Assembly (NCBI GenBank): GCA_964583815.1
Contig: CAZOYA010000002.1
Coordinates: forward strand, 596 to 64,595
Reading direction: 5' to 3'
DNA: 64,000 nt
Source of the DNA: an uncultured Gemmatimonadaceae bacterium
GTDB lineage: Bacteria > Gemmatimonadota > Gemmatimonadetes > Longimicrobiales > Gaopeijiaceae
The notes under the pieces are model-generated. The model saw nothing but the letters and a program-made list of their open reading frames with translations, was not told the origin of the DNA and did no database searches. Made by a program: the position numbers and the translations under genes. Of the stretch, positions 774 through 13,874 are shown in pieces. How positions within the stretch are numbered: position 1 is the first letter of the stretch; the number at the start of each line of letters is the position of its first letter.

Positions 774-1819
774 GCCGGCCGCCCGGGCCGGGGCCCGGCG
801 CGGGGTCGGGGGACGGCGATGCGCCCGTCGTGGAGGCGTCCGGGCCGGCGTCCGGGGCGTGGGAGGAGCACGCGCTCCTGGTGGACGCGCCGGACGAGGG
901 GGAGCGGCTCGACCGTTTCGTGGCCGCGCGGCTCGAGCTGTCGCGCACCCGTGTCCAGAAGCTCCTCGAGCGGGGGCACGTGCTCGTGGACGGGCGTGCG
1001 GCCCGCAAGTCCGAGCCGCTCGCCGCCGGGGCCCGCGTCTCGGTTCGGGTCCCGCCGCCCGAGACGGTCCTCATGGAGCCGGAGGACATCCCCCTCCGGA
1101 TCGTCCACGAGGACGCCGACCTCGTGGTGGTGGACAAGCCGGCCGGGCTGGTCGTCCACCCGGCGCCCGGGCACCGCTCCGGGACGCTCGTGAACGCGCT
1201 CCTCTGGCACGTGCGCGATCTCTCGGGCGTGGGCGGGCGGCTCCGCCCGGGCATCGTGCACCGGCTCGACCGCGACACCTCCGGGCTCATGGTCGTGGCG
1301 AAGACCGACCGGGCGCACCACGGGCTCCAGGACGCGCTGCGGCGCCGGAGGGTGCGCCGCCGGTATCTCGCGGCCGTGTGGGGCCATCTGCGGGAGGCGG
1401 AAGCGACGATCGATGCGCCCATCGCGCGGGACCCGCGCGAGCGGAAGCGGATGGCGGTCGTCGAGGGAGGGCGCCCGGCGCGCACCCGGATCCGCGTGGA
1501 GGAGCGCTGGGCCCGCGCCGACCTGATCCGCGCGGCGCTCGAGACCGGCCGGACCCACCAGATCCGCGTGCACCTCCGTCACCTCGGCCATCCCGTGGTC
1601 GGGGACGCGGTCTACGGGGCCGGATGGGAGCGGGGGCTCGGGGGCGAGAGCCGCGCCTGGGTGGAGGAGCTCGCACGGAGGACGCCCCGGCAGTTCCTGC
1701 ACGCCGCCGAGCTCGCGTTCGATCACCCGGCGAGCGGCGAGCGCATGCGCTTCACCGCGCCGCTGCCTCCCGATCTCGCGGCCGCCGCGGCGTGGGCGCG
1801 GGGCGCCCGCGCCGGGTAG
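770..1819 (+). CDS. rluD: RluA-family 23S rRNA pseudouridine synthase (RluD-like)
   Basis: S4-like N-terminus followed by the motifs HRLDRDTSGLMVVAKT and GRTHQIRVHL. The ATG at 770 overlaps the ileS stop (ATGA). Confidence 0.9.
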   Translation: MSRPPGPGPGAGSGDGDAPVVEASGPASGAWEEHALLVDAPDEGERLDRFVAARLELSRTRVQKLLERGHVLVDGRAARKSEPLAAGARVSVRVPPPETVLMEPEDIPLRIVHEDADLVVVDKPAGLVVHPAPGHRSGTLVNALLWHVRDLSGVGGRLRPGIVHRLDRDTSGLMVVAKTDRAHHGLQDALRRRRVRRRYLAAVWGHLREAEATIDAPIARDPRERKRMAVVEGGRPARTRIRVEERWARADLIRAALETGRTHQIRVHLRHLGHPVVGDAVYGAGWERGLGGESRAWVEELARRTPRQFLHAAELAFDHPASGERMRFTAPLPPDLAAAAAWARGARAG

Positions 1820-1859
1820 GCGGGGCGGCGCCCGGGGCCGGCGAAACGCGCACATCTCT

Positions 1860-1888
1860 TTGATATCCGGCGTTTCGGGCCGATACTT
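1860..1888 (+). promoter_or_regulatory. candidate sigma-70-type promoter, TTGATA-N17-ATACTT (or N16-GATACT)
   Basis: One of the few AT-rich islands in the window, about 75 nt upstream of the DnaA-like gene. Confidence 0.3.
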
Positions 1889-1963
1889 TAACGCTCCCGT
1901 TCCACGGCGGCTCGTCGCCGTCGCGACACGTCTCCCGAGCGGAAAACCCGCGCCACGCGCCCC

Positions 1964-3964
1964 ATGTCGGATCTCGATCCCAAGCTGACGTTCGAGTCCT
2001 TCGTGGTCGGTCCGGCCAATCGGCTGGCCTCGGCCGCGGCGCGTCGCGCCGCCGATTCGCCCGGGTCGAGCTACAATCCGCTCTTCCTGTATTCCGCCTC
2101 GGGGCTCGGCAAGACCCACATCCTGACCGCGATCGCCCACCAGGCGCAGCGCGCGGTGCCGGGCGGCAAGCTCGAGTACATGGCGCTCGAGAAGTACCTG
2201 GAGCGGCTCGAGCAGGCGCTCGAGGGCGGGGAGCGTGACGGCGTGTCGATCTTCGACAACATCGACATCCTGCTCCTCGACGACGTCCAGTTCCTCACGG
2301 GGCAGCAGGAGGCGCAGGAGATGCTCCTGCGCACGCTCGACCAGCTGTCGGCCGCCGGGAGCCAGATCGTGCTGGCGAGCGACCGTCCGCCGGCGGACAT
2401 CGACGGCCTCGACGCGCGGCTCCTGTCCCGGTTCAGCGGGGGCCTCATCGTCGACATCGGCCCGCCGGAGTACGAGACGCGGGTCGCGATCATCCGCCGG
2501 AAGGCCGAGGAGCGCGGCGACACCCTGGAGCCGGGCGTCGCGGAGGCGCTCGGCCGGCATCCGTTCCGCAACGTCCGCGAGCTCGGCGGCGCGCTCAACC
2601 GGATCCTCGCCACGCAGGAGCTCGAGGGGCGGCGGGTCCTCGCCGAGGAGGTCCCGCTGCTGCTGGGCAGCGTCGCGCCGAGCCGCGATACGATCGGCGA
2701 GGCCGAGCGCGGGGAGTTCGACAGCTTCCTCGACGACCTCCTGCACACCGTCGCGGAGGTCGTGGAGGAGAAGGAGGAGCCCTGGCGGCGGGCCTTCCGC
2801 GACGCGATCGACCAGGCCGAGCGGGAGGGCTTCTCGGCGCTCCGCCTCGAACCGTACGTCGACGGCACGGAGCCGGACGGCTGGGAGGAGATCGTCCGGC
2901 GCTTCCGCTCCGACGTGGAGCGGCTCCGGGAGATCGAGAACGAGCTGGACGAGCTGGGAAACCCCTGGCCCGAGGCGGCCGCCGGCGTGCTGCGCGACCC
3001 CGACCGCGTGCAGGAAGCGGAGAGCCTGCTCACGTCCGTGCGCGAGCGGCAGCGGCCCTTCCCGCGGCTCGCCCGTGGCCAGATGCTCGACGACCTCGAC
3101 GACCATCCGAAGATCGCGCTGAAGGCGGCGGCGCAGCTCGTCGCCACGGAGCGGCCGCAGTACAACCCGCTCTTCGTGTGGTCGAAGGACGAGGACCTCG
3201 CGAAGACGCTGCTCGGGGCCGCCGGACGCAGCTACCAGTCGATCCACTCGGGCACGCGCATGGCGGTGACGTCGGTGCGCGAGTTCGCGGACGACTTCAT
3301 CCGCGCGCTCGGGGCGGGGGTGGCCGGCGCCTGGCGGGAGCGCTGGTGGACCCTCGACCTCCTCCTCGTGCACGGGGTGCAGGCGCTCTCGGAGACGGAG
3401 CGCGCCCAGGACGAGTTCTTCCACCTGTTCGAGGCGCTGAAGCGCCGCGGGGCGCGGGTGATGCTAGTGGCGGACCGTCCTCCGGCCGCCCTCGAGGGGA
3501 TCGACGATCGCCTCCGCTCCCGCTTCGAGGGCGGGCTCGTGCTGGAGCTCGACGGGGGCACGCCGGGCGGCGACCTGATCCTCGAGGACGAGCGGGTGTC
3601 CCTCGACGCGAGCCTCATGGTGCCGGGCTTCTCCCTCGATCCCCGGTCGCGCTCGGCCGAGGCCGACGCGTTCGCCACGGCCACGGACGCGACCCCGGGC
3701 TCCGGCGAGCCCGCGGGCGTCGGCGCCAGGGGCACGTCGGCGGATCGGGCGCCTTCGCCTGCCGACGGATCGGGAAGCGGGGCCGCGGCCGTGGGGGCAC
3801 GCGCGGACACGGGGGCCGGGCGGGCCACGGGTCCGGAGATCGCGCCCGTCCAGCCGCAGGCGTCCCGTTCGCAGGGCGGGGGCGTGTGGTACCCGAGCCC
3901 CGAGAACGTGGTCATCCACTGGCCGCGCATGGACGAGTTCCTGATCGAGGAGCTGGACGCGTGA
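1964..3964 (+). CDS. DnaA/Hda-like protein with two tandem DnaA domain-III (AAA+) modules and no DNA-binding domain IV
   Basis: Module 1 is intact: Walker A SASGLGKTH, Walker B LLLDDVQF, RLLSRFSGGL box. Module 2 (about aa 383-530) repeats the same layout (YNPLFVW..., DRLRSRFEGGL), but Walker A is replaced by SKDEDLAKT and Walker B by LLLVHGVQ. The tail is acidic and low-complexity. Confidence 0.8.
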   Translation: MSDLDPKLTFESFVVGPANRLASAAARRAADSPGSSYNPLFLYSASGLGKTHILTAIAHQAQRAVPGGKLEYMALEKYLERLEQALEGGERDGVSIFDNIDILLLDDVQFLTGQQEAQEMLLRTLDQLSAAGSQIVLASDRPPADIDGLDARLLSRFSGGLIVDIGPPEYETRVAIIRRKAEERGDTLEPGVAEALGRHPFRNVRELGGALNRILATQELEGRRVLAEEVPLLLGSVAPSRDTIGEAERGEFDSFLDDLLHTVAEVVEEKEEPWRRAFRDAIDQAEREGFSALRLEPYVDGTEPDGWEEIVRRFRSDVERLREIENELDELGNPWPEAAAGVLRDPDRVQEAESLLTSVRERQRPFPRLARGQMLDDLDDHPKIALKAAAQLVATERPQYNPLFVWSKDEDLAKTLLGAAGRSYQSIHSGTRMAVTSVREFADDFIRALGAGVAGAWRERWWTLDLLLVHGVQALSETERAQDEFFHLFEALKRRGARVMLVADRPPAALEGIDDRLRSRFEGGLVLELDGGTPGGDLILEDERVSLDASLMVPGFSLDPRSRSAEADAFATATDATPGSGEPAGVGARGTSADRAPSPADGSGSGAAAVGARADTGAGRATGPEIAPVQPQASRSQGGGVWYPSPENVVIHWPRMDEFLIEELDA

Positions 3965-3980
3965 GCGCGGAGGCTGCCTG

Positions 3981-5600
3981 ATGGCCATCGAGGGCGCGCT
4001 CCAGGACGTCAGCCTGGCCGACATCTGCCAGCTCCTCGGCATGGGCCGCAAGACCGGGTGCCTGAGCATCACGGACCGCTCGAACTTCGGCTACATCTAC
4101 TTCCAGAAGGGCCGGGTGATCTACGCGTCCGTGCTCAACCGGCGCGACCGCCTGGGCGAGCTCCTGGTGCGCAACCACGTGATCACGCGCAAGGATCTCT
4201 CGGCCGCCATGGAGACCCAGTCGAAGCAGCGGAACCGGCGGCTCGGCGAGATCCTGATCGCGCAGGGGGCGCTCAGCCGCGAGGACCTGCGCCGCTACAT
4301 CCAGCTCCAGGTGGAGGAGGCGGTGTACCACCTCTTCACCTGGCCGCAGGGCTCCTTCCACTTCGACAGCGACCAGATGCCCGAGGAGGACGGGCTCCTC
4401 CTCGTGGACATCCCGCCCGAGGCGCTCCTCATGGAGGGGGCGCGGCGCGTCGACGAGTGGAGCCTGGTCGAGAAGAAGATCCCCTCCTTCGACCTCGTCT
4501 TCCAGCTCGACAAGAACCCCGAGGACGTCGACGGCGACTTCGAGCTCACGCGCGAGCAGAAGAAGCTCCTCCCGTTCATCGACGGCCAGCGCACGGTCCA
4601 CGAGATCATGAACGAGGCGGGCCTCGTCGAGTTCGACACCGGCAAGGCGCTCTACGGGCTCATCCAGGCCGGCTTCGTGTCCCGCTCCGGCGAGCGCAGC
4701 ACCCAGGAGGAGACGGGGGGCGACGAGGCGCTCCAGCAGCACCTGAACGTCGGGGTGGCGTTCTACCGCTCGGGGATGCTCGAGGATGCCGCGCGGGAGT
4801 TCGAGGAAGCGCTCGCCATCGATCCCCGCCAGGCGCGCGCGAACTTCATGATGGGGCTGATCGCGTTCCGGCGGGCGCGGCTCGAGGAGGCGCTCGAGCA
4901 CTTCGGCTCGATGCCCCCGGGGTACGCGGAGAGCTACGCGGTCCATCGCAACACCGCCCTCACCCTCGAGGCGCTCGGCCGCTACGACGAGGCGCTCGAG
5001 GCGCTCGAGGCCGCCAGGGCGGTGCGTCCCAAGGATCACGAGATCTACCTCGCCCGCGGGATCATCCACTTCAAGGCGCGGCGGATCTCCGACGCGCTGG
5101 AGTCGTTCCGTCGCTACCGCACCTATCCCGGGCTGAAGGTCCCGGCCCAGGAGTACTACGCCTACACGGTGCTCGCGGCCGCCGTGGGGGGCGACCTCGA
5201 CTTCGCCGTCGCGGTCGGACAGGAGGGGATGGGGCATTATCCCGACTCCGGTCCGATCATGGTGAACACGGGCGCCGTGCTCGAGCGCAGGGGCGACGTG
5301 GACGCCGCCGCGGCGCTCTACAAGCGGGCGGTCGCGGTGACGCCGCCGCCCCCGCAGGCGCACAAGAACCTGGGCGACCAGGCCTACGCGCACGGCGACA
5401 TGGACGCGGCGCGGGTGCAGTACGAAAAGACGGTGAAGCTCGCGCCGCGCCTCGGCGACGACGTGTACCTGAGGCTCGGGACGATGGCGTACAAGGACAA
5501 CGACCGGGACGTGGCGCTGCTCCTGTGGCGGCGCGCCCTGGACATCAACCCGCACAACGAGGCGGTACGCGCCAACCTGGAGATGCTCGGAAGCGAGTGA
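3981..5600 (+). CDS. DUF4388-domain protein with tandem MshEN-like 24-residue motifs and C-terminal TPR repeats
   Basis: N-terminus GALQDVSLADICQLLGMGRKTGCLSI...IYFQKGRVIYA (DUF4388 pattern). Then RLGELLVRNHVITRKDLSAAMETQ, a 6-aa spacer, and RLGEILIAQGALSREDLRRYIQLQ. TPR-like repeats follow from about aa 250. A GGAGG lies 7 nt upstream of the ATG. Confidence 0.85.
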   Translation: MAIEGALQDVSLADICQLLGMGRKTGCLSITDRSNFGYIYFQKGRVIYASVLNRRDRLGELLVRNHVITRKDLSAAMETQSKQRNRRLGEILIAQGALSREDLRRYIQLQVEEAVYHLFTWPQGSFHFDSDQMPEEDGLLLVDIPPEALLMEGARRVDEWSLVEKKIPSFDLVFQLDKNPEDVDGDFELTREQKKLLPFIDGQRTVHEIMNEAGLVEFDTGKALYGLIQAGFVSRSGERSTQEETGGDEALQQHLNVGVAFYRSGMLEDAAREFEEALAIDPRQARANFMMGLIAFRRARLEEALEHFGSMPPGYAESYAVHRNTALTLEALGRYDEALEALEAARAVRPKDHEIYLARGIIHFKARRISDALESFRRYRTYPGLKVPAQEYYAYTVLAAAVGGDLDFAVAVGQEGMGHYPDSGPIMVNTGAVLERRGDVDAAAALYKRAVAVTPPPPQAHKNLGDQAYAHGDMDAARVQYEKTVKLAPRLGDDVYLRLGTMAYKDNDRDVALLLWRRALDINPHNEAVRANLEMLGSE

Positions 5601-6652
5601 GACGCGCCGGAAGGGCCTCGTGCTCGGCGGCGCGTGTCGCGGCCCTCGTGCTCGCGCTGCTGCTCGGCGCGGGGACCGCGGGGTCGGAGGCGCAGGTTCC
5701 GCCCACCCTCGACGGCGCTCCCTACCAGAGCATCCGCGGCCACCGGGCCACCGTGTACTTCGTCGCGGGGCAGGCCGCGCTCGCCGAGCGGGTGCGCACC
5801 CTCCTCGACGCGCAGCCGCCGTTGCCGGCCCTCCCGCCCGAGCTGCCGAGCGGGGTCCATGCCGTCCTCGCGCACACGCCGGCCGCCCTCGACGCCGTCA
5901 CGGGCGGCGTGGTCCCGGAGTGGCGGGCCGGGGTCGCGGTCCCGGCCCGGATGCTCCTGGTGATCCCGACCGGGGAGGGCACGGGCGTGCTCGATGCGGA
6001 GGGCCTCCGCACGATCCGCCACGAGTGGGCGCACCTCGGGCTGCACGCCTACCTCGAGGGGCGCCGGGTGCCGCGCTGGTTCAGCGAGGGCTACGCGGAG
6101 TGGGCGGCGGGCGGTTTCGATGCGATGGACGCGTGGCGCCTGCGGGTCGGGCTCGCGCTCGGCAGCACCCCCTCGCTCGACTCGGTCGCGCTGGCCTGGC
6201 CGGCCGGGCGCGAGCAGGCGCGCACGGCATACCTGCTCGCCGCCAGCGCCGTCTCCTACCTCGTGGAGGCGGGGGGCGAGCGCGGGCTCGCGCTCTTCCT
6301 CGAGCGCTGGCGGGCCGGCGGCTCGTTCGAGGAGGCGCTGCGCGCCACCTATGGCGTCACCAGCGGCCAGCTCGAGGAGGACTGGCGCGCGTACGTGAAG
6401 GACCGCTTCGGCTGGCTGTTCGTCCTCGCCCGCTCGAGCGTCTTCTGGCTCGTGCTCGCCGTGGTCCTCCTCTTCATGGTGCGCGTGCGACGGCGGCGGA
6501 ACCGGGAGGCGCTCGCCCGGCTCCGGGCCGACGAGCCGCCGGACGTGCCGGCGTACTGGGAGGACCCGGAGGGACGTCCCCCGGAGCCGCCCGCGCCGCC
6601 CCCGGCTCCCGGCGAACACCCGGTGGACCCACGGGACGGGTTGGGGGGGTAG
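5597..6652 (+). CDS. membrane-anchored MA-clan (HExxH) metallopeptidase-like protein
   Basis: The GTG at 5597 overlaps the upstream stop (GTGA). Signal peptide [19 protein letters not shown]; HEWAH followed by FSEGYAEW; C-terminal TM helix [13 protein letters not shown] and a Pro-rich tail. Confidence 0.75.
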
Positions 6653-6660
6653 CATCGAGC

Positions 6661-8067
6661 ATGACCGATCCGACCATGCACCGCATCCTGGTCGTCGACG
6701 ACGACGTCGACGGCCTCGAAGTCCTGCGCATGCGCCTCACGCACGCAGGGTACGCCGTCGAGACCGCCGAGAGCGCCGAGCGCGCCCTGTCGCGCGTCAG
6801 CAAGTTCGAGCCCGAGCTCATCGTGACCGACGTCCGCATGTCGGGGATGAACGGTCTCGAGCTGCTCGAGAAGGTCCGCAGCACCATGGAGAACGTCGAG
6901 GTCGTCGTCATGACGGCCCACGACGACATGGAGACGGCCGTGACCGCCATGAAGGCCGGCGCGTTCGACTTCCTCGTGAAGCCGGTCGACCCCAAGGCGG
7001 TCCAGGGGCTCGCCGAGCGCTGCTTCCGCGAGCAGGCGCTCGCGATCGCGGCCCGGGTGGAGAGCGACCGGAAGACGGACGTGCAGGGTGCCCTGCCGCG
7101 TGGCCAGCTCGTCGGGCGCAGCCCCGCCATGATCGAGATCTACAAGACGATCGGCGTGCTGGCCCGCAACCGCGCGACGGTGCTCGTCCGCGGCGAGACC
7201 GGCACCGGCAAGGAGGTGATCGCGCGGGCGATCCACCAGCACTCCGTGCACGCGGACGAGCCCTTCATCGCGGTGAACTGCACCGCGCTCACGGACACGC
7301 TGCTCGAGTCCGAGCTCTTCGGTCACGTGAAGGGCGCGTTCACCGGGGCCGCCGGGGCCCGCAAGGGCTACTTCGAGCTCGCCAAGAAGGGCACGATCTT
7401 TCTCGACGAGATCGGCGACACGAGCCTCGAGCTCCAGGCGAAGCTGCTGCGCGTGCTCCAGGAGCGGCGCTTCTACCCGGTCGGCGGCGAGGAGGCGCGA
7501 CGCACCGAGGCGCGGGTGATCGCGGCCACGCACCAGCCGATCGAGAGGCTCATCGAGGAAGGGCGCTTCCGCGAGGACCTGTACTTCCGGCTCCAGGTCG
7601 TGGAGATCGAGGTCCCGCCGCTCCGCGCGCGCCCGGAGGACATCGAGCTGATCGCGCATGCGCTCCTCGGCCGCATCCGCGACGAGACGCACCGCGACGT
7701 GCGGCGGATCTCCGACGCGGCGATGGCGAAGCTGCGTGGCCACGACTGGCCCGGGAACGTGCGCGAGCTGGAGAACGCGCTCATGCGCGCCGCGATCATG
7801 GCGCGCGGGACGATCATCGGCCCCGACCACCTGATCCTCGGCGACGAGGAGGGGCCGAGCATCCACGGGGTCGATCTCTCGCTGCAGAGCGCCATCGGCC
7901 GGCACATCCGCATGGTGCTGGAGGGCGCGGACGGGGACGAGCTCCTGGCGGCCGAGCAGCTCCGGATCAGCGTCGACGAGCTGCGCGGGCACCTGGCGAG
8001 CGACGGCGGCTGGATCCGGCGGAGGTCCCGGTCGGCCGACGCGCCGGCCTGGCTCGAGCTGGACTGA
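6661..8067 (+). CDS. sigma-54-dependent response regulator (NtrC family), no adjacent kinase
   Basis: Receiver domain (ILVVDDD...[13 protein letters not shown]), AAA+ domain with GETGTGKE and GAFTGA, and a C-terminal HTH ([16 protein letters not shown]). Confidence 0.9.
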
Positions 8068-8104
8068 CCGGGCTGCGCGGTCCGCTCCGCCCGTTCCGAT
8101 ATGA

Positions 8105-8133
8105 TTGACCGGGCCGGATCCGGCGGATAGCAT
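8105..8133 (+). promoter_or_regulatory. candidate promoter TTGACC-N17-TAGCAT
   Basis: AT-richer island. The -10 ends about 9 nt before the ATG at 8143, which implies a very short or absent leader. Confidence 0.3.
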
Positions 8134-8142
8134 AGGGGCGCC

Positions 8143-8403
8143 ATGACGTCCCGAGCCTCCCAGAGCACCCGACCCCGCCGGTCCGAGAAGCGGGAAGCGC
8201 GCGTGCGCCGCACCGCCTCCGGTGCTGCGGGCGAGGACCGTCGCGCCCTTCGCTTCACGAAAGTGAACGCGATCTTCGCCGGGTCGGGGCTGCTGACCCT
8301 CGCGCTCGGGTACTGGCTCCTCGGCGAGGGCTCGATCACGGCCGCGCCGCTCCTGCTCGTGCTCGCCTACGTGGTCCTGCTCCCGCTGGCGATCATCCGC
8401 TAG
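8143..8403 (+). CDS. small membrane protein (basic N-terminus, two predicted TM helices)
   Basis: High GC3. Hydrophobic segments IFAGSGLLTLALGYWLL and AAPLLLVLAYVVLLPLAII. No family recognised. Confidence 0.55.
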   Translation: MTSRASQSTRPRRSEKREARVRRTASGAAGEDRRALRFTKVNAIFAGSGLLTLALGYWLLGEGSITAAPLLLVLAYVVLLPLAIIR

Positions 8404-11587: not shown

Positions 11588-11744
11588 CCGGCCGGAGCGC
11601 CGCCGGCGAGCGCGGCGCGCGCTCGCACGGGGGCGTGTGGCCTCCGCCCCGACGCGGTATCTTCGGACCGCGAGTCGACGTTCCGCGCGCTCCACCGTCC
11701 ACCCGCCCCACCGCCTCCACCCCACCGCTTCGCCCGCCGACTCC

Positions 11745-13874
11745 ATGACCTCCCCCACCGGCTCCCACTGGCTCCGGGACGTCGCGGGCCACGCCGGGCT
11801 CGCGCTGGACCTGCCCGTGCGCCCCAACGTCGTGGAGCTCCGTCGTGCGTGGACGCGGGTGGTCGAGGCCTGCCGCACGAGCGACGAGGAGTTCACGCGG
11901 CGCGTGGCGGGACATTTCCGCATCGGCGTCGCCGACGTCGCGCAGCGCGATCCCCAGGCGGTGGCGCTCATCCCCGAGGGCGTGTCGAGGCGCCACGGCG
12001 TGCTCGGCCTCAGCCTCACCGAGCGCAACATCGTCGTCGCCACCTCCGATCCGTCCAACCGGTCGGCGTGGCGCGAGGTGGTGGAGCACACGGGCCGGCA
12101 GCCGGTCTACCTGATGGCGAGCCCGGTCGCGATCGCGGAGGCGCTCGAGGAGGCCTACGCCCCGAAGCGCGCGCCCCGAAACAGCCTCGAGGAGCTCGTG
12201 CGTGAGGTCGCGCGCAGCGACTTCCAGGTGGTGACCTCGGACGGCCGCGGGCGCTTCACGAGCTTCGAGCTCGAGGATCCGGCCGTGGTGCGCCTGGCCG
12301 ACGTGCTGCTCCAGCAGGCGGTCCGCCACCGCGCCACCGAGGTCCACGTCGAGCCGGGACGGGAGCGCGGCCGGGTCCGCTACCGCATCGACGGCGTGCT
12401 CCAGCACGTGGTGGCGCTCCCGCCCGAGGCGCACGACCGCCTCGTGGCGCGCCTCGCCTACCTGGCGCGCGGCGGGGCGACCGGCGAGGAGGGCGACAGC
12501 TTCACCGTGCACGTCTCCGAGACGCTGCAGCGGCGGGCGCTCCTCCTCTCGACCCCGACGCCCGACGGGGAGCTCGTCACGATCCGGCTCGTGGCGCCCG
12601 CGGAGGTCCCCACGCTCGAGCGTCTCGGCTTCGAGGCCGACGACCTCGAGCGGATCCGCGACGTGCTCCGGCGCAACGACGGGCTCGTGCTCGTGGCCGG
12701 CCCCGCGCGGGCCGGGACCTCCACGTTCGTGTACGCCTGCATGCGGGCGCTCGCGTCCCGCAACGTGCTCTCGCTCGAGAGCCGCATCGAGTGCCACGTG
12801 CCGGGCGTCACGCAGGTGCGCTACGACTCCGCCACGGGGCTCTCGTTCGCCGAGACGCTCCAGCAGCTTCTCGATCGGAACCCCGACGTGGTGCACGCCG
12901 GCGAGGTGCGGGACCTCGCCACCGCCCGGATCGCGCTCCGCACGGCGGTGACCGGACGGAAGGTGCTCGCGACCGTACACGCCCCCGACGCCCCTTCCGG
13001 GCTCCGGCGGCTGCTCGATCTCGGGCTCGCGCCGGGGCGGCTCGCGGAGTCGCTCCACGCGGTGATCTCGCTCCGGCTGGTACGACGGCTCTGTCCGCAC
13101 TGCGCCGAGACGGTCGCCGGCCCGAACGACCTCCCCCCGCGCGAGCGCAAGCTCGCGGAGCTGCTGTCGGTGCTCCCGCCCCGACGCGCGGTCGGGTGCC
13201 GCGCCTGCGCGGGCACCGGATATCTCGGGCAGCTTCCGGTGGCCGAGATCCTCGTGCTCGACCGCACGATGCGCCAGCTCGTGGAGGAGGGCTACGACGA
13301 CGCGGCGCTCCACCTGGCCGCGCGCATGGAGGGGATGCGCCCGCTGGGCGAGTCCGCGATCGACCGGGCCCGGAAGGGGCACACGACCGTCGAGGAGGTC
13401 GAGCGGGTGCTCGGCGTCGTGCCCACCCGGGCCGAGACGCCGCGCTCGGCGGGCCCCGTGCTGCTCGTCGAGGACGAGCCGCAGGACCGTCTCCTCGTCG
13501 GGTCCATCATCAGGGACCTCGGATTCGAGGTGATCGAGGCCGAGGACGGTGAGGCCGCGCTGGAGCTCCTCCGGGAGCGCGGCGGTCGCTTCTCGCTCGT
13601 GGTGCTCGACCTGGTCCTGCCCGGGATCGACGGCATCGAGGTGCTGCGGCGCCTCCGGCAATCGCTGGACACGCAGTACCTCCCGGTGCTCGTGCTCACG
13701 AGCACCACGGACCCGCGCCGCGAGATCGAGCTGCTCGACGAGGGCGCGGACGACTACGTGCTGAAGCCCGTCGCCGTGGATCGCTTCCAGGCACGCATCC
13801 GGGCCGTGCTGCGCCGGAGCGGCGTACGGATCGAGACCGGCGGGAGCGCCGAGGCGGTCGGTGCCGGCGGCTAG
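11745..13874 (+). CDS. GspE/PilB-like secretion-ATPase homologue with degenerate catalytic motifs, fused to a C-terminal response-regulator receiver domain
   Basis: T2SSE_N-like N-domain (ALIPEGVSRRHGVLGL...VVATSDP). Walker A reads GPARAGTST, with Lys replaced by Thr. Asp box is degenerate (LESRIE). NPDVVHAGEVRD and the tetra-Cys motif CPHC...CRAC are retained. REC domain: LLVEDE...VVLDLVLPGIDG...DYVLKP. Confidence 0.85.
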   Translation: MTSPTGSHWLRDVAGHAGLALDLPVRPNVVELRRAWTRVVEACRTSDEEFTRRVAGHFRIGVADVAQRDPQAVALIPEGVSRRHGVLGLSLTERNIVVATSDPSNRSAWREVVEHTGRQPVYLMASPVAIAEALEEAYAPKRAPRNSLEELVREVARSDFQVVTSDGRGRFTSFELEDPAVVRLADVLLQQAVRHRATEVHVEPGRERGRVRYRIDGVLQHVVALPPEAHDRLVARLAYLARGGATGEEGDSFTVHVSETLQRRALLLSTPTPDGELVTIRLVAPAEVPTLERLGFEADDLERIRDVLRRNDGLVLVAGPARAGTSTFVYACMRALASRNVLSLESRIECHVPGVTQVRYDSATGLSFAETLQQLLDRNPDVVHAGEVRDLATARIALRTAVTGRKVLATVHAPDAPSGLRRLLDLGLAPGRLAESLHAVISLRLVRRLCPHCAETVAGPNDLPPRERKLAELLSVLPPRRAVGCRACAGTGYLGQLPVAEILVLDRTMRQLVEEGYDDAALHLAARMEGMRPLGESAIDRARKGHTTVEEVERVLGVVPTRAETPRSAGPVLLVEDEPQDRLLVGSIIRDLGFEVIEAEDGEAALELLRERGGRFSLVVLDLVLPGIDGIEVLRRLRQSLDTQYLPVLVLTSTTDPRREIELLDEGADDYVLKPVAVDRFQARIRAVLRRSGVRIETGGSAEAVGAGG

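What the first reader, a model, noticed from the sequence alone, without database searches (positions are those of the whole stretch)
1964..3964. DnaA-like protein with an intact and a degenerate AAA+ module in tandem and no domain IV
Residues about 8-235 form a complete DnaA domain III (FVVGPANRLA...YNPLFLYSASGLGKTH, LLLDDVQF, DARLLSRFSGGL). Residues about 383-530 repeat the same order of elements (PKIALKAAA...YNPLFVWSKDEDLAKT, LLLVHGVQ, DDRLRSRFEGGL), but the Walker A lysine loop and the Walker B acidic pair are lost. An acidic, coiled-coil-like spacer separates the two modules. There is no DnaA-box-binding HTH. That is an ATPase/pseudo-ATPase pair within one polypeptide, reminiscent of Hda-type regulators but duplicated.
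Basis: partly seen in the sequence, partly recalled or inferred. Interest (0 to 1): 0.62.

Follow-up and report, generated by a model that had tools for sequence, protein, structure and literature searches.

The report
Half-dead tandem DnaA-like ATPase, signalling-linked
This soil-bacterium gene encodes two copies of the ATP-binding core of the replication initiator DnaA, the second unable to bind ATP, joined by a previously undescribed helical domain; it lacks a DNA-binding domain, is not the initiator, and belongs to an unstudied family wired to cell-polarity and signalling genes rather than replication genes.

Summary
ORF 1964-3964 (666 aa) has two Bac_DnaA (PF00308) modules, scoring 163 and 101 bits, and no domain I or IV. 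Module 1 keeps every ATPase motif. Module 2 has lost Walker A, Walker B and the lid, but keeps the box VII arginines. A canonical dnaA lies elsewhere in the genome.

Two corrections. The 'acidic spacer' is a conserved five-helix domain with no Pfam family and no PDB fold match. A conserved 25-residue acidic motif sits at the extreme C-terminus.

The Hda-like reading is not supported. The gene belongs to a family found in 199 of 301 sampled Gemmatimonadota genomes. It is always followed by a PATAN(DUF4388)/TPR gene, and the two co-occur or are co-absent in 295 of 301 genomes. In four other families of the class it sits in a fixed CheA...MglB-MglA-[this gene]-PATAN/TPR-CheR-CheD-CheW cluster, where module 2 has intact ATPase motifs and a lid. 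The window's family keeps only a trimmed core of that cluster, and its dead module 2 is a derived state under strong purifying selection.

The helical domain also occurs as 7-21 tandem repeats in other proteins, some of them Thermoplasmatota archaeal proteins that end in a DnaA domain III.

Most likely function: an ATP-dependent switch or scaffold working with the PATAN/TPR partner. I found no description of it in the literature.

The parts
1860..1887 (+). Sigma-70-like promoter candidate (TTGATA-16-GATACT) in the AT-richer gap between rluD and the gene.
   Evidence: 2 sites found in 1700-8400 against 0.1 expected. The next site is only at 8105, after the sigma-54 regulator. This is a consensus match only.
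1964..3964 (+). Whole ORF, 666 aa: tandem DnaA-domain-III protein ('DnaA2x').
1973..2668 (+). Module 1 (aa 4-235): a complete DnaA domain III with lid. It has Walker A K50, Walker B D106/D107, box VII R152/R156 and sensor II R205.
   Evidence: PF00308, 163 bits. TIGR00362 aa 2-228. B. subtilis DnaA 8bv3, 181 bits. Foldseek TM 0.82, rmsd 3.2 A. These motifs are conserved in nearly all 32 orthologues examined; a few single-module or divergent sister forms have altered Walker B, box VII or sensor II.
2708..3052 (+). It is family-specific, with motifs EFxxFLxD, PWR, EGxxxxRLE and LxDPDRxxEAExLL.
   Evidence: pLDDT 94-98; alignment A1; profile found in 199/301 phylum genomes; 426 representatives, some with 7-21 tandem copies; no Pfam family; no PDB fold match (best E 2.3).
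3110..3547 (+). Module 2 (aa 383-528): a lidless pseudo-ATPase. The P-loop is degenerate (SKDEDLAKT) and Walker B DD is replaced by H470-G471. Box VII R516/R520 is kept, and so are DnaA ssDNA-contact-type residues I446 and R480.
   Evidence: PF00308, 100.7 bits. Aquifex DnaA 2hcb, 83 bits, with alignment; pLDDT ~95; many invariant residues..
3596..3886 (+). Disordered Gly/Ala/Ser/Pro/Thr-rich tail (aa 545-641). Its length and sequence vary between orthologues.
   Evidence: pLDDT below 50.; 62% G+A+S+P+T.
3887..3961 (+). Conserved C-terminal motif (aa 642-666): WYPSPENVVIHWPRMDEFLIEELDA. The acidic pair always lies 2-3 residues from the stop codon.
   Evidence: a motif pattern found it only at the C-terminus of this protein, in 22 of 33 loci scanned, and in no other cluster protein; alignments show it in nearly every other intact orthologue.
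3981..5600 (+). Partner gene: a 539-aa protein with a PATAN (DUF4388) domain and TPR repeats, starting 16 nt downstream.
   Evidence: PF14332, 138 bits, plus TPR. Adjacent in 17/17 genomes and 15/15 genomes. against 75: both present in 198, neither in 97, discordant in 6 of 301.
5597..6652 (+). Membrane-anchored Peptidase_MA_2-like protein. Its GTG start overlaps the stop of the previous gene.
   Evidence: Present in the cluster in most genomes.
6661..8067 (+). Sigma-54-dependent response regulator (REC-AAA+). It follows the peptidase gene in seven of the eight f1 loci examined and in none of those from other families.

Best explanation
The gene encodes a non-initiator paralogue of DnaA. It belongs to a Gemmatimonadota-wide family with the layout [DnaA domain III]-[novel five-helix domain]-[DnaA domain III]-[disordered tail]-[acidic C-terminal motif]. 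Shown: it is not the initiator. Both modules are DnaA-type and not Hda-type. The family is co-inherited and co-transcribed in orientation with a PATAN/TPR protein. Ancestrally it sits between mglA and that gene, inside a Che/MglA/MglB cluster. Module 2 was ancestrally a full ATPase. In this order it lost its lid, in this family it lost Walker A and B, and in some sister genera it was lost altogether. Module 1, the helical domain and the C-terminal motif are always kept. Inferred: module 1 is an ATP-driven switch or oligomerisation engine. In this lineage module 2 is a non-catalytic partner that still offers its arginine finger and a DnaA-like surface, giving an asymmetric pseudo-dimer with a single catalytic site. 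This resembles the inactive delta-prime subunit of clamp loaders or the inactive ORC subunits. The helical domain and the C-terminal acidic peptide are protein-docking elements, and the peptide may bind the partner's TPR. Together with the PATAN/TPR protein and the membrane peptidase-like protein, the protein forms the retained core of a polarity or surface-behaviour signalling module. In this family that module has been rewired from Che/MglAB control to a sigma-54 response regulator.
For: Architecture and motifs. Canonical dnaA elsewhere. Partner adjacency: 17/17 genomes of the order. In four other families of the class, 15/15 genomes share CheA-CheC/X-TPR-PATAN/TPR-TPR/Roadblock-MglB-MglA-[gene]-PATAN/TPR, followed in most by CheR-CheD-CheW-peptidase (12 of 15 show every listed member, Pfam identities). 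Phylogenetic profile with the partner: both present in 198, neither in 97, discordant in 6 of 301. Evolutionary series of module 2: Walker A intact, with Walker B intact or nearly so, wherever module 2 could be read (10 of 15 loci) in f4/f5/f8, and a lid with a sensor-II arginine in the five of those printed; lid lost in this order; motifs dead in 7/7 members of this family; module absent in five single-module loci (four of family f2, one of f6). Dead module 2 is under purifying selection: many invariant residues among 46 homologues, and a long stem followed by short tips in the tree. The C-terminal motif is unique to this protein and sits at a fixed distance from the carboxyl end. Tight gene spacing, with no internal promoter-like or terminator-like sites. 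Independent recurrence of 'helical domain + DnaA-III without domain IV' in Thermoplasmatota archaea, which as a group initiate replication with Orc1/Cdc6 and not DnaA (general knowledge). Metatranscriptome contigs at 98-100% identity cover parts of the gene and the PATAN/TPR-peptidase junction.
Against: There is no biochemical or genetic evidence. The functional link rests on gene order and co-occurrence, and the losses are few and phylogenetically clustered events. The AlphaFold2 inter-domain arrangement is unreliable (pTM 0.51), and no coordinates were available to test a cis arginine-finger contact. The TPR-docking idea is untested. Module 2 keeps DnaA's ssDNA-contact-type residues: hydrophobic I/V/L in 20/23 and Arg in 18/23. 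That would fit a nucleic-acid or DnaA-filament contact rather than pure protein signalling. The window's family lacks the Che genes and the cluster's own MglA/MglB, and most members have no CheW anywhere. Its present role may therefore differ from the ancestral one. The RNA contigs may contain contaminating DNA and some come from a related strain.
Confidence: 0.6

Rival explanations
1. It is a replication-initiation regulator. It is Hda-like, or it caps or poisons DnaA filaments. It would co-assemble with canonical DnaA through its DnaA-type AAA+ faces and arginine fingers, perhaps coupling polarity signalling to initiation.
For: Both modules keep box VII arginines. Module 2 keeps the DnaA-specific ERAQDEFFHLF segment and the ISM hydrophobic residue. 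Both modules are closer to DnaA than to any other AAA+ family.
Against: It has no clamp-binding-like motif. Hda models score far below their cut-off: 113 against 194.8. The gene is never next to replication genes in the 32 loci examined. It lies far from dnaA in closed genomes: in G015 it is at 4.54 Mb and dnaA at 2.88 Mb. It is absent from about a third of phylum genomes; the four of these checked for DnaA (G011, G016, G017, G024) each keep one canonical dnaA. It co-occurs almost perfectly with PATAN/TPR. The same domain pairing occurs in archaea, which are not known to use DnaA.
Confidence: 0.12
2. It is a nucleic-acid-handling ATPase. Module 2's retained DnaA ssDNA-contact surface would bind single-stranded DNA or RNA. 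One example would be a link with type IV pilus or DNA-uptake functions that PATAN regulators control in other bacteria.
For: Module 2 keeps the V211-type and R245-type positions whereas module 1 has lost them. PATAN regulators act on the type IV pilus motor PilB in Synechocystis (preprint 10.1101/2021.06.11.447907, listed). A PilB-like ATPase lies 3.5 kb downstream in the window.
Against: The whole protein is acidic (pI 4.7; module 2 pI 5.4). In DnaA, ssDNA binding requires ATP-dependent oligomers, and module 2 cannot bind ATP here. Single-module orthologues lack module 2 entirely yet keep the partner and the C-terminal motif. The PilB-like gene is not syntenic in relatives.
Confidence: 0.08
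3. It is a decaying duplicate: a non-functional relic of a dnaA duplication on its way to becoming a pseudogene.
For: Module 2 has lost its catalytic motifs and its lid. Some relatives show frameshifted copies (G009; L059, L060 and L069), which may be assembly errors.
Against: The 666-aa frame is intact with GC3 0.95. Hundreds of full-length homologues share 60-97% identity, with long runs of invariant residues, including within module 2. The family is class-wide with fixed synteny. RNA contigs cover the gene.
Confidence: 0.02

Closest known systems
DnaA, bacterial chromosomal replication initiator (TIGR00362; domain III = Pfam PF00308; structures 8bv3/8btg, 2z4r, 1l8q/2hcb/3r8f)
   Same: Both modules are DnaA-type AAA+ domains of the initiator clade. 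Module 1 has all ATPase motifs and a lid, with 40% identity, TM 0.82 and rmsd 3.2 A to B. subtilis DnaA domain III.
   Different: It has no domain I, no domain IV and no DnaA-box binding. It has two domain III units in tandem with a novel helical domain between them. In the tree it falls outside the canonical DnaA clade. A separate canonical dnaA exists. Its genomic context is signalling, not dnaN/oriC.
Hda (TIGR03420; structures 5x06, 3bos, 3sc3), the DnaA-inactivating AAA+ protein of RIDA
   Same: It is a DnaA-related AAA+ protein that lacks the DNA-binding domain and keeps an arginine finger.
   Different: Hda is a single ~230-250-aa module with an N-terminal clamp-binding motif. Here there is no such motif, the Hda model scores well below its cut-off, and the protein has two modules plus extra domains.
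AAA+ assemblies with built-in inactive subunits: clamp-loader delta-prime, and inactive ORC subunits (a comparison from general knowledge, not tested here)
   Same: A P-loop-dead AAA+ module that keeps an arginine finger is paired with an active module. This could give one composite catalytic site.
   Different: In those assemblies the inactive subunits are separate polypeptides in ring-shaped complexes that act on DNA. Here the two modules are fused, and neither the geometry nor the partner site is known.
MglA/MglB polarity GTPase module and PATAN-domain regulators (Makarova et al. 2006; Wuichet & Sogaard-Andersen 2014, PMC4316618; PATAN-PilB preprint 10.1101/2021.06.11.447907)
   Same: The family's gene cluster contains an MglA-like GTPase, Roadblock/MglB-like proteins and PATAN proteins. 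The MglA/MglB-PATAN association is already documented.
   Different: Neither paper's searched text mentions a DnaA-like or AAA+ component. The window's family has dropped the cluster's MglA/MglB and Che genes from this locus.
C-terminal EEVD peptide binding to TPR 'carboxylate clamp' domains in Hsp70/Hsp90 co-chaperones (an analogy from general knowledge)
   Same: An acidic motif (…IEELD) sits at a fixed distance from the free C-terminus, at the end of a flexible tail, and a TPR protein is encoded next door.
   Different: There is no sequence identity to EEVD. The conserved motif here is longer (about 25 residues with two Trp). Binding is untested.

Membership tests
DnaA (chromosomal replication initiator, TIGR00362) | AAA+ domain III with Walker A/B, sensor I/II and box VII arginine finger | tested here: met
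   Module 1: PF00308 at 163 bits, with all motifs present. Module 2 has the fold only.
DnaA (chromosomal replication initiator, TIGR00362) | C-terminal domain IV (PF08299), the DnaA-box-binding helix-turn-helix | tested here: not met
   No PF08299 hit in the protein. The only genomic hit is on contig C79, in a canonical dnaA. The C-terminal 120 aa are disordered plus a short motif.
DnaA (chromosomal replication initiator, TIGR00362) | N-terminal domain I (helicase loading and self-interaction) | tested here: not met
   The protein starts 3 residues before domain III, and no N-terminal domain hit was found.
DnaA (chromosomal replication initiator, TIGR00362) | Equivalog model score at or above the curated cut-off (343.9 bits) | tested here: not met
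   341.1 bits is reached only by summing two partial matches. Module 1 alone scores 245.8.
DnaA (chromosomal replication initiator, TIGR00362) | Orthology: groups with canonical DnaA in a domain III tree | tested here: not met
   Module 1 (support 100/97) and module 2 (82/79) form their own clades. These lie outside a 96/83-supported clade of canonical DnaA that includes Aquifex and B. subtilis. The tree is unrooted.
Hda (TIGR03420) | Equivalog model score at or above the cut-off (194.8 bits) | tested here: not met
   113 bits for the whole protein, 90.3 for module 1 and 28.7 for module 2.
Hda (TIGR03420) | N-terminal beta-clamp-binding motif (QL[SD]LF type) | tested here: not met
   No Q[LIVM]x[LIVM]x[LFIVM] match anywhere in the protein.
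Hda (TIGR03420) | Stimulates hydrolysis of DnaA-bound ATP (RIDA) | not testable with these tools
   This needs biochemistry.
Gemmatimonadota tandem DnaA-III / helical-domain family (unnamed; NCBI labels it 'DnaA/Hda family protein') | N-terminal intact DnaA domain III followed by the family-specific five-helix domain | tested here: met
   The linker profile scores E = 4e-51 on the window.
Gemmatimonadota tandem DnaA-III / helical-domain family (unnamed; NCBI labels it 'DnaA/Hda family protein') | Conserved C-terminal W...W-P...EE motif 2-3 residues from the stop codon | tested here: met
Gemmatimonadota tandem DnaA-III / helical-domain family (unnamed; NCBI labels it 'DnaA/Hda family protein') | Immediately followed on the same strand by the ~540-aa PATAN/TPR gene | tested here: met
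   Window 3981-5600. Adjacent in 32/32 loci examined and co-occurring or co-absent in 295/301 genomes.
Gemmatimonadota tandem DnaA-III / helical-domain family (unnamed; NCBI labels it 'DnaA/Hda family protein') | Second domain III competent for ATP (the ancestral state) | tested here: not met
   Walker A, Walker B and the lid are lost in the window and in all 7 members of its family examined. The window is therefore a derived variant within the family.
Type II tandem AAA+ unfoldases (p97/NSF/ClpB) | Two classical-clade AAA+ rings stacked in a hexamer | tested here: not met
   Foldseek matches to p97 are generic (rmsd 16-21 A, 12-15% identity). Both modules are initiator-clade domains. The oligomeric state is not testable here.

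The most novel reading that the evidence does not exclude
The ATPase core of the bacterial replication initiator has been taken out of replication and combined with a previously unrecognised helical repeat domain, apparently on separate occasions in Gemmatimonadota and in Thermoplasmatota archaea. The result would be an ATP-driven switch or DnaA-like polymer that organises a PATAN/TPR-MglA polarity system. In this lineage it would work as an asymmetric tandem with a single catalytic site. Its dead half would still carry DnaA's ssDNA-contact surface, so it might even link cell polarity or surface behaviour to the chromosome.
Probability: 0.3. Interest if true: 0.8.

Novelty: new variant of a known kind. 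Interest (0 to 1): 0.64.

Why it matters
DnaA domain III is regarded as a dedicated replication-initiation engine. Its only well-studied DNA-binding-free relative is Hda, which also acts in replication. Here a large, conserved family re-uses that engine in tandem, with no DNA-binding domain. The family is tied genetically to PATAN/TPR, MglA/MglB and chemosensory genes. A parallel fusion in archaea points the same way.

If this is confirmed, three things follow:
- The functional range of the initiator clade of AAA+ proteins widens.
- A new helical repeat domain is defined.
- An unknown ATP-dependent component is added to bacterial polarity and signalling modules.

The graded series (two active modules, then a lidless second module, then a dead one, then none) is also a natural experiment on how pseudo-ATPase modules arise and are retained.

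Tried and rejected
1. Hda-like regulator: rejected as a membership claim. The model score is below the cut-off, there is no clamp-binding motif, and the context is wrong.

2. The canonical dnaA on C51 and C79 as one gene split by assembly: rejected. The 263-nt overlap is only 83% identical, so these are two alleles or strains within the MAG.

3. The N-terminal domain of the archaeal repeat proteins as a PATAN domain, which would have made a fusion counterpart of the gene adjacency: not supported. The hhalign probability is 5%, with only a weak DUF2226 hint.

4. An MshEN-type c-di-GMP motif in the partner's PATAN insertion: it resembles one by eye, but Pfam does not detect MshEN even at E <= 10.

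5. A fold assignment for the helical domain: Foldseek against the PDB gave nothing significant.

7. A search for the C-terminal motif in other cluster proteins: none found.

8. A link between the dead module 2 and loss of the Che/Mgl genes: only partial. Family f3 keeps the cluster yet has both live and dead module 2 versions.

9. Literature searches for a DnaA-like partner of MglA/PATAN, for DnaA paralogues in Gemmatimonadetes, and for DnaA in Thermoplasmata: no relevant description found.
Full report
**1. The observation**

- The window is 73% G+C. ORF 1964-3964 (+) encodes 666 aa with third-position GC of 0.95, like the other real genes here.
- Pfam finds Bac_DnaA (PF00308) twice. Scanned separately, aa 4-164 scores 163.4 bits and aa ~383-527 scores 100.7 bits, against a cut-off of 23. 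There is no Bac_DnaA_C (domain IV) and no domain I.
- NCBIfam's DnaA equivalog covers aa 2-230, so module 1 includes its lid. The Hda model scores far lower: 90.3 bits for module 1 and 28.7 for module 2, against a cut-off of 194.8.
- Against solved structures, module 1 matches B. subtilis DnaA domain III at 181 bits, while E. coli Hda reaches 35 bits. Module 2 matches Aquifex DnaA at 83 bits and no Hda.
- Module 1 has every catalytic element: G47-L-G-K50-T, D106-D107, S139-D-R-P-P, box VII R152/R156 and sensor II R205.
- In module 2 the P-loop reads S407-KDEDLAKT, and the Walker lysine aligns with Ala413. Walker B DD is replaced by H470-G471. Box VII (D514-DRLRSRFEGGL) is intact.

**2. Two additions to the anatomy**

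- The 'acidic spacer' really is acidic (pI 4.5), but it is a folded and conserved domain.
  - AlphaFold2 gives pLDDT 94-98 for five helices over aa 249-363. Folded on its own, the domain reaches pLDDT 82.
  - It aligns across all orthologues, with the motifs EFxxFLxD, PWR, EGxxxxRLE and LxDPDRxxEAExLL.
  - It has no Pfam family and no PDB fold match (best Foldseek E 2.3, TM <= 0.27).
- Module 2 has no lid. It runs into a ~100-residue disordered tail (pLDDT below 50) that varies in length between orthologues.
- The protein ends in a conserved ~25-residue motif, WYPSPENVVIHWPRMDEFLIEELDA.
  - A pattern for that motif matched 22 of 33 loci scanned; in each, its acidic pair lies 2-3 residues from the stop codon.
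  - It occurs in no other protein of the cluster.

**3. It is not the initiator**

- The genome (a MAG, 89% complete, 5.75% contamination) has canonical dnaA fragments at two contig ends. C51 carries domains I and III, and C79 carries domains III and IV, the latter with PF08299 at 96.6 bits.
- Their overlap is only 83% identical, so they are two alleles or strains and not one broken gene.
- Thirteen of the 15 relatives that carry a full-length orthologue also show exactly one canonical dnaA of ~470-520 aa.
- In closed genomes the two genes lie far apart. In G015 this gene is at 4.54 Mb and dnaA at 2.88 Mb.

**4. The family and its context**

- Hundreds of 600-690-aa homologues share 60-97% identity. 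Where a name exists it is 'DnaA/Hda family protein' or 'chromosomal replication initiator protein', from Gemmatimonadota/Longimicrobiales MAGs.
- A profile of the helical domain alone, which cannot hit canonical DnaA, finds the family in 199 of 301 sampled genomes of the phylum, in 83 of 127 genera.
- In 17 genomes from three families of the window's order, the gene is always followed on the same strand by a ~540-aa PATAN(DUF4388)/TPR gene.
- In the window's family (f1) the usual block is ileS-rluD-[gene]-PATAN/TPR-Peptidase_MA-like membrane protein-sigma-54 response regulator.
- In 15 of 15 genomes from four other families of the class the conserved core is CheA-CheC/X-TPR-PATAN/TPR-TPR/Roadblock-MglB-like-MglA-like-[gene]-PATAN/TPR. 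In most it continues CheR-CheD-...-CheW-Peptidase_MA-like, and 12 of the 15 show every listed member (Pfam identities).
- Searching the same 301 genomes for the PATAN/TPR orthologue at E <= 1e-70 gives 203 hits.
  - Comparing the two lists: both genes are present in 198 genomes, this gene alone in 1, the partner alone in 5, and neither in 97.
  - The single 'this gene alone' case has a frameshifted partner. One 'partner alone' case has a linker-deleted copy of this gene.
- The window's family has lost the upstream CheA...MglA segment and the CheR/CheD/CheW genes from this locus.
  - Six of the seven f1 genomes tested, including the window's own, have no CheW domain anywhere.
  - They keep only a second MglA paralogue elsewhere. 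In the window's genome that paralogue lies next to grpE-dnaJ.

**5. Evolution of the second module**

- In families f4, f5 and f8, wherever module 2 could be read (10 of 15 loci; the rest were frame-broken or single-module), its Walker A is intact (GPAGVGKTH, GPSGTGKSH ...) and its Walker B is intact or nearly so (LLLDD, with LVLDN in one). In the five of these printed it is followed by a complete lid with a sensor-II arginine (...SVRAVLG...). The ancestor was therefore a double-active tandem.
- In the window's order the lid is gone. In family f3 the Walker motifs are intact in some genera and degenerate in others. In all seven members of the window's family both motifs are destroyed.
- Five of the loci examined (four of family f2, one of f6) encode a single-module form of 340-395 aa. 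It keeps module 1, the helical domain and the C-terminal motif.
- In a maximum-likelihood tree of 53 domain III segments, module 1 (100/97) and module 2 (82/79) each form one clade with mirrored internal branching. The dead module 2 of this family sits on a long stem (0.85) followed by short tips.
- Among 46 close homologues, module 2 contains long invariant runs: AGAWRERWWT, ERAQDEFFHLF and DRLRSRFEGGL. That is the pattern of a change of function followed by constraint, not of decay.

**6. An unexpected division of labour**

- I checked the positions that canonical DnaA uses to hold single-stranded DNA: E. coli V211 (B. subtilis I190) and E. coli R245.
- At the V211 position canonical DnaA has V/I in 18 of 18 sequences. 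At the R245 position it has Arg in 13 of 18.
- Module 1 has polar residues or Met at the first position (the five commonest, H/T/E/M/S, account for 27 of 32) and Glu in 19 of 32 at the second.
- Module 2 keeps I/V/L in 20 of 23 sequences and Arg in 18 of 23. In the window these are I446 and R480.
- So the ATP-competent module has lost the DnaA-type ssDNA surface, and the ATP-dead module has kept it. I cannot explain this. It keeps a nucleic-acid or DnaA-filament contact open as a minority reading.

**7. The helical domain elsewhere**

- Against 1.84 billion representative proteins, the linker profile finds 426 proteins at E <= 1e-3, and 287 at E <= 1e-10.
- Besides the tandem and single-module forms, it hits long proteins carrying 7-21 tandem copies of the domain.
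- Several of these are from Thermoplasmata/Thermoplasmatota archaea. They have an N-terminal domain, about 8 repeats, and then a complete DnaA domain III (PF00308, 234 bits) with no domain IV, often followed by zinc ribbons.
- Their genes stand alone, with no conserved neighbours.
- In the tree, four of the five archaeal domain III sequences nest inside the canonical DnaA clade (96/83) and do not group with module 1. The helical domain therefore seems to have been joined to a DnaA domain III more than once.
- As a group, archaea initiate replication with Orc1/Cdc6 (general knowledge). This recurrence argues that the pairing serves something other than oriC initiation.

**8. Expression**

- A sigma-70-like site lies at 1860-1887. 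There are no promoter-like or terminator-like sites between 1964 and 8067.
- Gene gaps are 16 nt, then a 4-nt overlap, then 8 nt. This fits one four-gene operon.
- Compost metatranscriptome assemblies contain contigs at 98-100% identity over parts of the gene. Examples are 1971-2230, 2127-2324, 3469-3635 and 3651-3815.
- One contig (5432-5627) crosses the junction between the PATAN/TPR gene and the peptidase gene.
- These are assembler contigs, may include DNA, and some come from a related strain. They are supportive but weak evidence.

**9. Mechanism**

- Shown:
  - It is a non-initiator DnaA paralogue with one intact ATP site.
  - It has a conserved pseudo-ATPase, a novel helical domain and a C-terminal docking-type motif.
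  - It is co-inherited with a PATAN/TPR protein and is ancestrally embedded in an MglA/MglB/Che cluster.
- Inferred:
  - Module 1 works as an ATP switch or oligomeriser.
  - Module 2 acts as a non-catalytic partner. It may donate its arginine finger to module 1, as inactive clamp-loader or ORC subunits do.
  - The helical domain and the tail peptide dock partners, and the peptide may bind the neighbouring TPR.
- I put about 0.6 on the overall reading: a signalling or polarity-associated ATP switch, not a replication regulator. The specific arginine-finger and TPR-docking steps deserve considerably less.
- Rival readings are a DnaA/Hda-like replication regulator (0.12), a nucleic-acid-handling ATPase (0.08) and a decaying relic (0.02).

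**10. Novelty**

- Public annotation files these proteins generically as DnaA/Hda family proteins.
- Full-text searches found no description of a DnaA-like component of MglA/PATAN systems, of tandem DnaA domain III proteins, or of the archaeal fusions. The PATAN-MglA/MglB association itself is known (PMC4316618).
- Earlier notes of this scan flagged sister members in other genomes. I re-derived their main claims independently. I also add several points:
  - the graded degeneration series of module 2;
  - the co-occurrence table with the partner;
  - the ssDNA-residue asymmetry between the modules;
  - the C-terminal motif;
  - the repeat and archaeal occurrences of the helical domain.
- I rate it a new variant of a known kind: an initiator-clade AAA+ protein in a new architecture and context.

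Noticed in passing
Proteins P0122-P0131, P0240, P0272-P0274 (47 hits); loci L035-L038: The window's linker domain occurs as 7-21 tandem repeats in long proteins, up to 3,090 aa. Some are Thermoplasmatota archaeal proteins that end in a full DnaA domain III without domain IV, plus zinc ribbons. No Pfam family covers the repeat. The archaeal genes have no conserved neighbours.
   Followed up: partly
Own genome contigs C51:2-463 and C79:2-751 (outside the window): Two canonical dnaA fragments sit at contig ends and are only 83% identical over a 263-nt overlap. The MAG therefore mixes two strains or alleles at dnaA. This is probably why the assembly breaks there.
   Followed up: yes
window 4120-4300 (aa ~47-107 of the PATAN/TPR protein): The alpha-helical insertion of the PATAN domain holds two RLGE[LI]L[VI]...L...Q stretches. 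By eye they resemble the MshEN c-di-GMP-binding motif. Pfam does not detect MshEN there, even at E <= 10.
   Followed up: partly
window 11637-13874 (+): A PilB/GspE-type secretion ATPase (T2SSE, 233 bits) with an N-terminal MshEN domain and an unusual C-terminal receiver domain. It lies 3.5 kb downstream of the cluster, after a PadR regulator and a MacB/FtsX-like permease. It is not syntenic with the cluster in relatives.
   Followed up: no
window 6661-8067 (+): A sigma-54-dependent response regulator follows the peptidase gene in seven of the eight f1 loci examined. It takes the place that CheR/CheD/CheW genes occupy in the other families, which suggests the retained core was rewired to a different input.
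   Followed up: partly
G000 contigs C275:1-549 and C314:1-87: The genome's only MglA-like GTPase is 53-56% identical to the cluster-type MglA. It is split across two contig ends, between dnaX-recR and grpE-dnaJ. It corresponds to the second, non-cluster MglA paralogue seen in sister-family genome G026.
   Followed up: partly
L029 (G009), L059, L060, L064, L069: Several orthologues are interrupted by a frameshift in otherwise good assemblies. I could not tell whether these are sequencing errors or real pseudogenes.
   Followed up: no
window 1648-2229: One metatranscriptome contig (run X21, 582 nt, 95.5% identical, from a related strain) spans the end of rluD, the intergenic region and the start of the gene. 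There may be read-through from rluD in addition to the candidate promoter.
   Followed up: no
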